The position numbers and the translations under genes are program-made. Below the pieces are notes generated by a model, which was given only the letters and a program-made list of their open reading frames with translations, was not told the DNA's origin and made no database searches. From the human T2T-CHM13v2.0 reference genome, Homo sapiens, in the NCBI RefSeq assembly GCF_009914755.1, contig NC_060926.1: a DNA stretch of 64,000 nucleotides; one strand, 5' to 3'. This document shows positions 47,326 to 49,773 of this stretch, in pieces. How positions within the stretch are numbered: the stretch's first letter is position 1; each line of letters begins with the position of its first letter.

Positions 47326-49773
47326 TTACCGAACGACAAGGCAGGAGACGCACAGTTTGGAGGGGCCGATGCAATCATCATGGCAGAAAGCGCCACAGCC
47401 TTTGCACATGATCATGGCTTTCAAGCGGCAGTAACATTTCGAAGGCGTGCCCTCTATGCTGTTCTCTTCGGAGAACGCCTGAACAGGAATGGTCTGGCCA
47501 TGGCTGCTGGGATTCATAGCTTGGCTAGCAGGGATGGTAGTGACAGTCACTGAAAATGACATGACATCACCTACATTGCTAGATACCTGGCTACCTGGTA
47601 CAGCAGAGTTATGGTCCATGTCAGATGAGGTGGAGACATTGATCATGCCTCTATAGCTTGGCCCTATCTGGGTGGGGCTTCCATACAACTTCGGGGTTTG
47701 CAGGGGTGGAAGGAGTAGGGGCTGGTGGGTGGGGCTGTCTGCAGGCAGAGGAAGAACAGTAGAACTGAAAAGCTCGGGGCTGCTACGGATTGCCTTACCT
47801 CTCACTGCATGAGCCATCTGCTTCTGTGCTGCCTGAATTAAATCTCTGGCTAGGGTCTTTTCATCAAATGTTTGGCCTCTAGTGAACAGGTAATTCTCCT
47901 TACTTAAAGTGGTTTGCTCATTCAATGGTATCTCAGCCTTCACATTCTTGCTAGCTAAGCAATCACTGGTAGATAGAGTTTCCCTGCTGTGAGGTCCTGA
48001 ACTTGTGTCACCCTTGCCAGCACTCTGGGAAACCTGGGGCTCCTCTTTCACTGTGACAGATTCCTGCTCATCACCAGTACTTTCCTCATCAGTGTCATCT
48101 TCTTTGCTGCTGCTACTCTCTCCTGTTGCATTTTTACAGTCTGTATATCCCATTTTCAAGGCTTCAGTGGGGCTGCTTAGACAAAAACGATCTTCAGGGT
48201 TTACAGAATGGGTCCTCCTAAAGCTCTCTGAGCCCCGGCCGTAGGTAGAAATATTCAGTAAGTAGTGCCCTGCCATTGCAGGTTTGGATGTCCTTCTGCC
48301 AGCAAAACCCAGCATGAACCTCTGGCTTGTGGAGATGTCTTCCAGCTGGAAACCTGAGTGAGCGAAGTTGAACTGTGAGGGCGGCACAACTGAGAGAAGA
48401 TTCTGCCTCCGAACCCTCTGAATGAGAGTCTGAAGGATCTGATCTTGGGTTGCTTTACTTAGTCCTTCGTGGTATTGGTGTGTGTCAATGCTGGAGTCCC
48501 TCAGCTCCTTAGCTGAAAAGAGCTGAAGGGGCCTTGGAACCTGGGGGAGCTGCTTACTTTGCAAGGTTTTGCCCAGCTGCTGCTGCGTAGCTGGATGGGA
48601 CTGTCTCTCATTAACTTCCTCTCTGGTGCTATTTTCTGTTGTGTTGGTAGCTATGAGCGCTCCCATCCCCCTTTCCTCTTTTGCAGTCAGTGGAACCGTT
48701 TTCATTTCAACTTTGGTGAGAGGTTTAGGCAGAATTTGCTCCATGGGAACATCTTTGCCTTGAAGCAGCTGAGTCACTAAAGGATTATTAGCAGGGATAC
48801 TAGAGGTTGGTCTTAAAGTGGGTCCATTCATGTTTAAAGAAGTTCCTGGGGTTTTAAGGCTAGAAGCTGCTGGCAAAGTGCTCGAGGGTGGAGCTGATCC
48901 AGCAGGTGCTGTAGTTGCACTGACCTGGGGTACAGGAAGCTTTTCTAAAGTGGCTGTGGTCAATAAAGATGTTAAAGGGGAGGGAGTTACAGCCACTGGC
49001 ACACTAGCATCTGTCTTTGATGAGGCTGAAGGGTTAGGTATATTCTTACTAGGACCTGCTTTGAGCTCAACTGTGCCATCAGCTGCACAATGAACAGGTG
49101 AGGCACCTGAGATTAGAGCAGGACCTGTTGGAGAAGGTGCTTTCTCCTGTCTGCAACTACTGGGCCCTTGTGGATGGCTGACAGAGGCCACTGTGGCTGT
49201 TGCTCTGGTGGGGTTCAGTTTTTCATTATCCAATTTCTCTATGTGGGCTGGTGATGGGACACTTGTGCATGCTCCACTGACGGCAGGTGTTGGAGGCACT
49301 GGGGGGGTTTGCTGTAGTTGTGCTCCAGAGACACTATGAGGCTGTGCCTGGCTTGGGGTGGTCTTGGTCTCAGACTGGGGCTGAGTCTCTGGACCACAGG
49401 GTAAAAGCTCTCTCGTACCTCCCCTGCTTCCAGTTCCTGCCAGTTCCAGTGTGGGGCCCTTTCCAGTTTCACTGACTCTGTCTGAGCCTGGACTGCCTCC
49501 TCTAGCAGTCTGCCCTTCACCACCCTCTCCTGGACCTTGTCCACCCCCTGGGCCAGGTCCTGGAATGGTCCCTCCAACTGAGGCGGCTGCAGCAGCTGCG
49601 GCGGCAGCGGCAGCTGCTGCCCTCTGTGCTTTGACCAGTTGGGCTTTTGCTTTGATGTCTGCAAGAGTTCTGGCTCCTGTTCTGTTAGGACTAGTGATGG
49701 AGACTGGAAAACGAGCCCTGGGAGAGACCTGCGATGGATGAAACGGCATGGGGGAGATTCTGGAGACCGGGAT
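47326..49773 (-). CDS. ASXL2: ASXL2 last coding exon (815 aa + TAA)
   Basis: Lies within ORF 47326-49851. Acceptor ttctttcag|ATC. Contains IPVSRI...[13 protein letters not shown] (ASXM1), poly-Ala, LVTQLL and the C-terminal PHD finger, ending LVVR*. Confidence 0.97.
47341..47436 (-). other. ASXL2: ASXL C-terminal atypical PHD zinc finger
   Basis: [32 protein letters not shown], the family signature. Confidence 0.95.
48763..48780 (-). other. ASXL2: LVxxLL nuclear-receptor box (LVTQLL) in ASXM2
   Basis: Translation [11 protein letters not shown]. Confidence 0.85.
49239..49727 (-). CDS. Overlapping +1-frame 'TF' (transframe) ORF of ASXL2, 161 codons after the shift codon, with an EHNY motif
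   Basis: The +1 frame is open from the shift site ([27 protein letters not shown]...[10 protein letters not shown]...HHQPT*) and contains no AUG. Matches the ASXL2-TF described bioinformatically (recalled: Dinan, Atkins & Firth 2017). Confidence 0.7.
49582..49620 (-). repeat. ASXL2: Coding poly-alanine tract (13 Ala, mixed GCN codons)
   Basis: 39 nt of GCA/GCT/GCC codons. Confidence 0.95.
49723..49730 (-). promoter_or_regulatory. Candidate -2 programmed ribosomal frameshift site AG_GUC_UCU
   Basis: Zero-frame codons CAG GTC TCT fit the RG_GUC_UCU / RG_GUU_UUU pattern of arterivirus nsp2 -2 PRF sites. A -2 slip enters the open TF frame. Confidence 0.6.

What the first reader, a model, noticed from the sequence alone, without database searches (positions are those of the whole stretch)
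49314..49325. EHNY HCF-1-binding motif encoded only in the overlapping frame
Seen: GAG CAC AAC TAC (E-H-N-Y) near the TF C-terminus, while the main frame there reads GAQLQ in a low-complexity region. Established: [D/E]HxY is the HCF-1 Kelch-binding motif, and BAP1, the ASXL partner, binds HCF-1 through a similar NHNY. Inference: ASXL2-TF would trade the PHD finger for an HCF-1 docking site and rewire the PR-DUB complex.
Basis: partly seen in the sequence, partly recalled or inferred. Interest (0 to 1): 0.8.

Follow-up and report, generated by a model that had tools for sequence, protein, structure and literature searches.

The report
Known ASXL2 overlapping-frame HCF-1 motif
The EHNY motif is really there in the +1 frame of the last ASXL2 exon and is conserved across land vertebrates, but it and its proposed HCF-1 docking role were published in 2017 and still await experimental proof.

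Summary
Observation confirmed. GAG CAC AAC TAC (EHNY) lies at 49325..49314 on the minus strand, in the +1 frame of the last ASXL2 coding exon, where the ASXL2 frame reads SGAQLQQ. It sits at residues 134-137 of a 161-codon open frame. That frame starts just after an in-frame AG_GUC_UCU at 49730..49723 and stops at 49241..49239.

This is exactly the "TF" ORF and EH[N/S]Y motif of Dinan, Atkins and Firth 2017 (PMC5644247), who name the same GAQLQ site and propose the same reconfigured BAP1/HCF-1 complex without the PHD finger.

My independent checks agree. All 7 library proteins that translate this frame and reach the motif read LEH[N/S]YS. In 89 of 91 ASXL2 orthologues the zero frame reads the forced [G/R]AQL. 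Human ASXL1 carries EHNY in its own +1 ORF and ASXL3 does not.

Translation of TF, the frameshift itself and HCF-1 binding remain unproven. The arterivirus-type signal is incomplete in ASXL2.

Verdict: real, conserved, already known.

The parts
49314..49325 (-). EHNY (GAG CAC AAC TAC), an HCF-1-binding-motif-like tetrapeptide in the +1 frame. The zero frame over it reads GAQLQ.
   Evidence: LEH[N/S]YS in 7 of 7 library +1-frame proteins that reach the column. Zero frame [G/R]AQL in 89 of 91 orthologues.
49242..49724 (-). TF ORF: 161 sense codons in the +1 frame after the proposed shift site. No Pfam family, no AUG.
   Evidence: The length equals the 161 codons given for human in PMC5644247.
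49239..49241 (-). Stop codon of the TF frame, within the last exon.
49723..49730 (-). AG_GUC_UCU, in frame (codons CAG GUC UCU). This is the proposed -2 ribosomal frameshift site.
   Evidence: the only RGGTCTCT in the last-exon coding sequence. Zero frame QVS in at least 78 of 83 aligned rows. Described in PMC5644247.
49410..49451 (-). [14 protein letters not shown], the best-conserved block of the TF peptide (TF residues 92-105). The zero frame reads ...[15 protein letters not shown].
   Evidence: 8 invariant columns, all in this block. for coordinates. LELAGTG in 66 of 83 zero-frame rows. The paper notes LE[A/E]G[E/Q] here.
47326..49773 (-). Last ASXL2 coding exon in the zero frame. Its C-terminal Asx PHD finger would be missing from a TF-terminated protein.
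   Evidence: Pfam PF13922 PHD_3, E = 8.7e-26, at residues 753-813 of the 815-residue exon product.

Best explanation
EHNY at 49325..49314 is the conserved EH[N/S]Y motif of the published ASXL2 'TF' overlapping reading frame. That frame is a 161-codon +1-frame ORF inside the last ASXL2 exon and is under selection as protein-coding sequence.

Most likely mechanism: a small share of ribosomes translating ASXL2 move into this frame near the start of the last exon. The published proposal is a -2 slip on AG_GUC_UCU at 49730..49723. The product keeps the N-terminal BAP1-binding half of ASXL2. It replaces the C-terminal half, including the PHD finger, with a disordered tail that carries a [D/E]HxY motif able to dock on the Kelch domain of HCF-1.

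Shown here: the anatomy, the conservation of the motif in the +1 frame, and the presence of the same motif in ASXL1 but not ASXL3.

Inferred, not shown: that the frame is translated, that the route is -2 frameshifting, and that the motif binds HCF-1.

My separate odds: same feature as published 0.98; +1 frame selected as coding 0.8; route is frameshifting at this site 0.45; motif binds HCF-1 if made 0.55.
For: Anatomy:
- In-frame AG_GUC_UCU, then 161 open +1 codons, with EHNY at TF residues 134-137. This matches the 161 codons and the GAQLQ example in PMC5644247.
- There is no AUG in the TF frame, so independent AUG initiation is excluded in human.

Conservation, my own test:
- A search of 1.84 billion representatives with the TF peptide gave 9 hits. 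Eight are translations of the same frame at 39-77% identity; the ninth, P0007, is an unrelated repeat protein.
- All 7 that reach the motif column read LEH[N/S]YS (5 EHNY, 2 EHSY).
- Of 120 listed ASXL2 zero-frame relatives, 91 align over the site. Of these, 89 read [G/R]AQL, the residues that a +1 EH[N/S]Y forces.
- The first residue toggles G (49) and R (40). That change is radical in the zero frame but silent in the +1 frame.
- The AQLQ columns are at least 90% conserved inside flanks at about 30-50%.

Paralogues in the same genome:
- ASXL1 has UCC_UUU_CGU in frame, a 154-codon +1 ORF and EHNY over zero-frame RTQLL.
- ASXL3 has no motif.
- Synonymous shuffles give a motif before the first stop in 27-34 of 20,000 for ASXL2 and 32 of 20,000 for ASXL1.

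Literature:
- PMC5644247 reports EH[N/S]Y in all TF sequences analysed, from 129 ASXL2 species. It reports synonymous-site suppression for ASXL2 in tetrapods, obs/exp 0.74, p = 1.3e-22.
- A 2026 preprint reports dN/dS selection in both frames of ASXL1 and ASXL2 (passages).
Against: - No experiment shows the protein. The PLEKHM2 preprint says the ASXL1 prediction 'has not been experimentally validated'. The 2017 authors found ribosome profiling uninformative. The 2026 preprint reports peptide support for the ASXL1 alternative frame only, and prefers alternative splicing.
- The arterivirus signal that the shift site copies needs the viral protein nsp1beta plus a C-rich CCCANCUCC motif. It works only with a 9-11 nt spacer (PMC4937337 passages). 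ASXL2 has only a look-alike, UCCAGUCUCC, 15 nt away, and cells have no nsp1beta.
- The 123 nt 3' of the site fold no better than shuffles: z = -0.82, with 42 of 200 shuffles as stable.
- Synonymous suppression in ASXL2 is modest, obs/exp 0.68-0.86.
- +1-frame amino-acid similarity also extends upstream of the shift site, for example ...CHFLRARSLPG. Similarity in that frame is therefore partly a by-product of zero-frame conservation.
- ASXL3 shows a 117-codon open +1 stretch without any motif, so long open +1 frames come easily in this composition.
- My orthologue set is mostly birds and holds no orthologous DNA, so I could not measure codon third positions myself.
Confidence: 0.7

Rival explanations
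1. The TF frame is translated and the motif works as proposed, but ribosomes reach the frame by another route than -2 frameshifting at AG_GUC_UCU. The route could be an unannotated splice form, or a shift elsewhere in the first 450 nt of the exon.
For: - The 2026 preprint calls alternative splicing plus gene duplication 'the most parsimonious explanation' (passage).
- The arterivirus-type signal is incomplete in ASXL2.
- In human, an AG at 49705..49704 behind a pyrimidine-rich stretch (15 of 20, against 19 of 20 for the real acceptor) would start an exon at 49703. That is exactly in the TF frame after the phase-0 upstream exon.
- A second in-frame GUC_UCU lies at 49332..49327, 2 nt before EHNY.
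Against: - The 49703 acceptor cannot be general. The residue after the proline is L, I or F in 61 of the 73 orthologue rows printed, which excludes the AG there. Two of the five +1-frame sequences that cover that column (human included) have P in place of Q.
- ASXL1 has no comparable acceptor near its exon start. Its +1 frame is open from the UCC_UUU_CGU in the upstream exon.
- The 2017 authors found no splice form or AUG that gives TF.
- The second GUC_UCU is not conserved: birds read PS or PP where human reads VS.
Confidence: 0.15
2. The +1 frame is not translated to any useful extent. The conserved island reflects a constraint on the zero-frame protein (a short AQLQ motif in ASXL2 itself) or on the nucleic acid (an RNA-binding site, or the RefSeq-listed enhancer at 48970-49470). 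EHNY is then a by-product.
For: - AQLQ is itself an island of at least 90% conservation in the zero frame.
- +1-frame similarity continues upstream of the shift site, where it cannot be due to TF.
- Reviewer 2 of the 2017 paper raised the same alternatives.
- The annotation supplied with the finding lists an enhancer over this stretch.
- There is no protein evidence for ASXL2-TF.
Against: - The one variable residue at the site, G or R, is the one that is silent in the +1 frame.
- ASXL1 keeps EHNY over a different zero-frame sequence, RTQLL against GAQLQ. A zero-frame motif does not explain that.
- The motif needs A-ending Gly/Arg and Ala codons and a rare YUA leucine codon. Even so, 7 of 7 divergent +1-frame sequences keep it.
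- The frame stays open across tetrapods.
- dN/dS below 1 is reported in both frames.
Confidence: 0.12
3. Pure chance: a four-residue match in an accidentally open alternative frame of a GC-rich, low-complexity exon.
For: In one sequence the features are only mildly unusual. The frame is open for at least 161 codons in 3.4-3.7% of synonymous shuffles, and a motif falls in the span in 3.7-3.9%. ASXL3 has a 117-codon open +1 stretch.
Against: - Both features together occur in 27-34 of 20,000 shuffles.
- The same motif is in the ASXL1 +1 ORF, where 32 of 20,000 shuffles give one.
- It is kept in 7 of 7 divergent +1-frame sequences.
- It is compatible with 89 of 91 orthologues.
Confidence: 0.03

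Closest known systems
ASXL2-TF / TF ORF with EH[N/S]Y (Dinan, Atkins and Firth, Biol Direct 2017, PMC5644247)
   Same: Identical. Same gene, same RG_GUC_UCU site, same 161-codon +1 ORF, same motif over zero-frame GAQLQ. Same proposal that the product links BAP1 and HCF-1 in a complex without the PHD domain.
   Different: Nothing in the finding goes beyond the paper. My additions are small: an independent protein-level check of conservation, the poor fit of the downstream C-rich element, and a non-conserved candidate acceptor at 49703.
ASXL1-TF (same paper); human ASXL1 on contig C20 of this genome
   Same: A +1-frame ORF at the equivalent place ending in ...SEHNYCRLIL, with the motif over a Q-L pair in the zero frame. 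The TF tail would replace the PHD-bearing C-terminal half.
   Different: The shift site is UCC_UUU_CGU (influenza PA-X type, +1) in the upstream exon. The TF peptides are not alignable by similarity: the ASXL2 TF query found no ASXL1 match in the genome. EHNY is 5 codons from the stop rather than 24. Peptide support is reported for ASXL1 only.
HCF-1-binding motif [D/E]HxY, and the NHNY variant of BAP1
   Same: EHNY fits the consensus. BAP1, the ASXL partner, carries NHNY within a conserved stretch, residues 356-385 (passage in PMC9601668). The ELM match is reported as the best hit for the TF peptide, p = 5.1e-5.
   Different: The binding of those motifs is described in print (the BAP1 passage, and the references the 2017 paper cites); I did not read the binding experiments. 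For ASXL2 neither the protein nor the binding has been shown.
Arterivirus nsp2TF -2/-1 frameshift signal (PRRSV; PMC4937337)
   Same: The slippery sequence RG_GUC_UCU is a known arterivirus variant. The A-site UCU can re-pair after a -2 slip, and there is no stimulatory RNA structure.
   Different: The virus needs nsp1beta with PCBP bound to CCCANCUCC at a 9-11 nt spacing. ASXL2 has UCCAGUCUCC at 15 nt and no viral protein.
PLEKHM2 +1 frameshifting (preprint PMC11451614)
   Same: A conserved vertebrate cellular gene with a transframe product from an influenza-like site. The abstract (search listing) and the passages read present it as an experimentally supported case.
   Different: It is experimentally supported, whereas the ASXL cases are only predictions. 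It uses a +1 site, not -2.

Membership tests
HCF-1-binding motif (HBM), consensus [D/E]HxY | Tetrapeptide matches [D/E]HxY | tested here: met
   EHNY at TF residues 134-137. The consensus is taken from PMC5644247.
HCF-1-binding motif (HBM), consensus [D/E]HxY | Motif conserved among orthologues beyond its flanks | tested here: met
   7 of 7 +1-frame library proteins read LEH[N/S]YS. 89 of 91 zero-frame orthologues are compatible. It is an island in the conservation profile.
HCF-1-binding motif (HBM), consensus [D/E]HxY | Motif is part of a protein that is actually made | not testable with these tools
The literature read gives no ASXL2-TF peptide.
HCF-1-binding motif (HBM), consensus [D/E]HxY | Motif-dependent binding to the HCF-1 Kelch domain | not testable with these tools
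Co-IP is a bench test.
Arterivirus-type -2 programmed frameshift signal | [quoted passage not shown] | tested here: met
   AG_GUC_UCU at 49730..49723, phase 0.
Arterivirus-type -2 programmed frameshift signal | C-rich CCCANCUCC element about 10-11 nt 3' of the site (efficient only at 9-11 nt) | tested here: not met
   The nearest look-alike is UCCAGUCUCC at 49708..49699, with a 15-nt spacer and one extra base inside. The requirement comes from PMC4937337.
Arterivirus-type -2 programmed frameshift signal | Trans-activating protein complex (nsp1beta with PCBP) | not testable with these tools
   nsp1beta is viral. A cellular stand-in is only a conjecture of the 2017 authors.
Arterivirus-type -2 programmed frameshift signal | Long open -2/+1 frame after the site | tested here: met
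   161 codons. Open that long in 680 and 735 of 20,000 synonymous shuffles.
ASXL TF dual-coding region (Dinan et al. 2017) | Same ORF, site and motif as described for human ASXL2 | tested here: met
   161 codons, RG_GUC_UCU, EHNY over GAQLQ.
ASXL TF dual-coding region (Dinan et al. 2017) | Paralogue pattern: ASXL1 has it, ASXL3 does not | tested here: met
.
ASXL TF dual-coding region (Dinan et al. 2017) | Suppressed synonymous-site variation in the zero frame over the overlap | not tested
   No orthologous DNA could be reached with these tools. The paper gives obs/exp 0.74, p = 1.3e-22 for ASXL2 in tetrapods. Its supplements could not be opened.

The most novel reading that the evidence does not exclude
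ASXL2-TF is a real low-abundance proteoform made by the first cellular -2 frameshift. A host protein bound to the C-rich stretch 3' of AG_GUC_UCU (UCCAGUCUCC at 49708..49699) would stimulate the slip. Arteriviruses would then have copied a host decoding mechanism rather than invented one, and the EHNY tail would give PR-DUB a second, regulated HCF-1 handle.

The existence of the proteoform and the HCF-1 handle are the published hypothesis. The host-factor and C-rich-element part is my addition, and it rests only on a loose sequence resemblance at the wrong spacing.
Probability: 0.05. Interest if true: 0.75.

Novelty: already known. Interest (0 to 1): 0.15.

Why it matters
If ASXL2-TF is made and binds HCF-1, truncating ASXL1/ASXL2 mutations in myeloid cancers and in Bohring-Opitz and related syndromes could be read as over-expressed, defective copies of a natural short isoform. 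It would also be one of very few frameshift-made proteins in vertebrate cellular genes. That argument has been in print since 2017. This finding adds nothing to it. What is missing is the experiment, not the idea.

Tried and rejected
- **TF peptide against the window's own genome**. Only itself and one chance-level match (E = 3.25). The ASXL1 tail is not detectably similar, so I located the paralogues through the zero frame instead.
- **Pfam on the TF peptide**. No family.
- **RNA fold of the 123 nt 3' of the shift site**. Not more stable than shuffles, z = -0.82.
- **Alternative acceptor at 49703**. Attractive in human, but rejected as a general route because the AG cannot exist in most orthologues and ASXL1 has no counterpart.
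- **UUU_C patterns at 49743 and 49710 as possible +1 slip sites**. One +1-frame relative (P0004) reads VS where human reads VF, which implies UUC there. Not pursued.
- **Chance as an explanation**. Rejected on conservation.
- **Supplements of PMC5644247**. Closed. Its species lists and Figures S1-S6 were not seen, so I take its 129-species conservation claim from the main text only.
- **The search of earlier findings**. Closed.
- **PMC2663315 (Misaghi 2009)**. Not held.
- **Searches for an experimental test of ASXL-TF**. 'ASXL-TF' gave 1 paper. 'ASXL1' with 'ribosomal frameshifting' from 2018 gave 11. 'ASXL2' with 'transframe' gave 1. Citations of the 2017 title gave 13. None of those I opened reports a test. 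The other listed papers were seen as listings only.
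Full report
**1. The observation**

On the minus strand the bases 49325..49314 read GAG CAC AAC TAC, that is E-H-N-Y. The ASXL2 reading frame over the same bases is GGA GCA CAA CTA CAG, that is G-A-Q-L-Q. The motif frame starts one base 3' of the ASXL2 frame, so it is +1, equivalently -2.

A stop-to-stop listing shows this frame open for 191 codons, 49814..49242, with its stop at 49241..49239. The only RGGTCTCT in the last-exon coding sequence is AG_GUC_UCU at 49730..49723, in phase with the ASXL2 codons. From the codon after it the +1 frame runs 161 codons, with EHNY at residues 134-137, 24 codons before the stop.

The zero frame of the 1,122 ASXL2 codons encoded in the window holds no [D/E/N]HxY. 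Exons outside the window were not examined.

**2. Chance**

- The six-frame background in the window is 9 motifs in 127,996 codon positions, about 0.011 expected in a peptide of this length.
- 1,013 of 100,000 shuffles of the TF peptide hold a motif.
- I shuffled synonymous codons within the exon, which keeps the ASXL2 protein and the codon usage. The +1 frame stayed open for at least 161 codons in 680 of 20,000 shuffles and 735 of 20,000.
- A motif fell in the same span in 771 and 747 of 20,000.
- A motif fell before the first +1 stop in 34 and 27 of 20,000.

One sequence alone is therefore suggestive, not decisive.

**3. It is already in print**

A search for ASXL2, frameshifting and HCF-1 gave three papers. 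The first is Dinan, Atkins and Firth, Biol Direct 2017 (PMC5644247). I read its abstract, Results, Discussion and the first part of reviewer 2's report, plus passages found by term. It describes:

- the RG_GUC_UCU site and a 161-codon +1 ORF in human ASXL2;

**4. Independent checks of conservation**

*(a) The +1 frame in other sequences.* The TF peptide searched against 1.84 billion representative proteins found 9 proteins at E up to 0.001.
- One, P0007, is an unrelated repeat protein.
- Eight are ORF calls that translate the same +1 frame from other sequences, at 39-77% identity.
- One of the eight, P0005, leaves the frame before the motif.
- All 7 others read LEH[N/S]YS at the aligned place: 5 EHNY and 2 EHSY.
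- These are mechanical ORF calls, so they say nothing about expression, and their open frames are selected by how they were found. The motif was not selected for.

*(b) The zero frame in orthologues.* A +1 EH[N/S]Y forces the zero frame to read [G/R][A/T]-Q-L.
- 120 ASXL2 relatives were listed out of 434 hits. They are mostly birds, with a bear, tuatara, a gecko, caecilians and a frog.
- 91 of the 120 align over the site, and 89 of those read [G/R]AQL: GAQL 49, RAQL 40.
- The tuatara protein reads RPQL, which would give DHxY if the third bases fit. One low-scoring row reads GAAV.
- The G/R toggle is radical for ASXL2 but silent in the +1 frame. This is what a +1-frame constraint predicts.

*(c) The conservation profile.* In an alignment of the 82 of 120 sequences that span the overlap, plus human:
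- AQLQ is at least 90% conserved inside flanks at 30-50%.
- LELAGTG, which lies over the TF block [14 protein letters not shown] at 49451..49410, appears in 66 of 83 rows.
- QVS at the shift site appears in at least 78 of 83 rows. Only the eight commonest strings were printed, covering 79 rows.

*(d) Paralogues in the same genome*.
- ASXL1 on C20 has UCC_UUU_CGU in frame in the upstream exon. It has a 154-codon +1 ORF counted from the UUU codon, and EHNY 5 codons before the stop over zero-frame RTQLL. 32 of 20,000 shuffles give such a motif.
- ASXL3 on C18 has no motif. Its +1 frame is closed after 10 codons and then open for 117.

**5. What remains unproven, and what speaks against the mechanism**

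- The PLEKHM2 preprint (passages) says the ASXL1 prediction 'has not been experimentally validated'. [quoted passage not shown]
- A 2026 preprint (passages) confirms selection in both frames of ASXL1 and ASXL2. It reports peptide support for the ASXL1 alternative frame only, and holds that alternative splicing is more parsimonious.
- The arterivirus signal that ASXL2's site copies needs viral nsp1beta and a CCCANCUCC element, and it is efficient only at 9-11 nt spacing (PMC4937337 passages). In ASXL2 the nearest look-alike, UCCAGUCUCC, is 15 nt away.
- The downstream 123 nt fold no better than shuffles, z = -0.82.
- +1-frame similarity also extends upstream of the shift site. It is therefore partly a shadow of zero-frame conservation.
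- There is no AUG in the TF frame, which excludes independent AUG initiation in human.

**6. An alternative route I looked at**

An AG at 49705..49704 behind UUUUCC would start an exon at 49703, exactly in the TF frame after the phase-0 upstream exon. It cannot be the general route. The residue after the proline is L, I or F in 61 of the 73 orthologue rows printed, which rules out that AG. ASXL1 also has no counterpart.

**7. The PHD claim**

Pfam places PHD_3 (PF13922, E = 8.7e-26) at residues 753-813 of the last-exon product, far 3' of the TF stop. A TF-terminated protein would therefore lack it. BAP1's NHNY motif is confirmed by a passage in PMC9601668.

**8. Verdict**

Its interest as a new finding is low. 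The biology remains an open and worthwhile bench question.

I could not see the 2017 paper's supplements, and I could not reach any orthologous DNA. Codon-level constraint therefore rests on that paper's main text and on the 2026 preprint.

Noticed in passing
window 49699-49708 (minus strand): UCCAGUCUCC lies 15 nt 3' of the AG_GUC_UCU site. It loosely resembles the arterivirus CCCANCUCC element bound by PCBP, but has one extra base and sits outside the 9-11 nt spacing that works in the virus.
   Followed up: partly
window 49703-49724 (minus strand): CUCGUUUUCCAG|UC looks like a 3' splice site, with 15 of 20 pyrimidines upstream. Used after the phase-0 upstream exon, it would put the TF frame in frame. 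The AG cannot exist in most orthologues (L, I or F after the proline in 61 of 73 printed rows), so at best it is lineage-specific.
   Followed up: partly
window 49327-49332 (minus strand): A second in-frame GUC_UCU (U_GUC_UCU_GGA) ends 2 nt before EHNY. A -2 slip there would also read LEHNY... It is not conserved: birds read PS or PP where human reads VS.
   Followed up: partly
window 49410-49451 (minus strand): [14 protein letters not shown] is the best-conserved stretch of the +1-frame peptide. All 8 invariant columns of the 9-sequence alignment lie in it. It matches no known family and its role is unknown. The 2017 paper notes the LE[A/E]G[E/Q] part.
   Followed up: partly
P0056 (named by its source as ASXL2 of Sphenodon punctatus), aligned to window 49314-49325: The zero frame reads RPQL instead of [G/R]AQL. 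If the third bases fit, the +1 frame would read DH[N/S]Y, still within the [D/E]HxY consensus. That would argue for selection on the motif rather than on the bases. No DNA was available to check.
   Followed up: no
L008 452-802 (ASXL3, contig C18): The ASXL3 last exon has a 117-codon open +1 stretch at the equivalent place with no [D/E]HxY. Long open +1 frames therefore arise easily in this Ala/Gly/Pro-rich composition.
   Followed up: yes
P0005, aligned to window about 49400-49420: This library protein follows the +1 frame up to ...[10 protein letters not shown]. It then continues with residues that resemble the zero frame (DSGELLPAGPD... against human ...[10 protein letters not shown]...), as if its source had an indel or a sequencing error there.
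   Followed up: no
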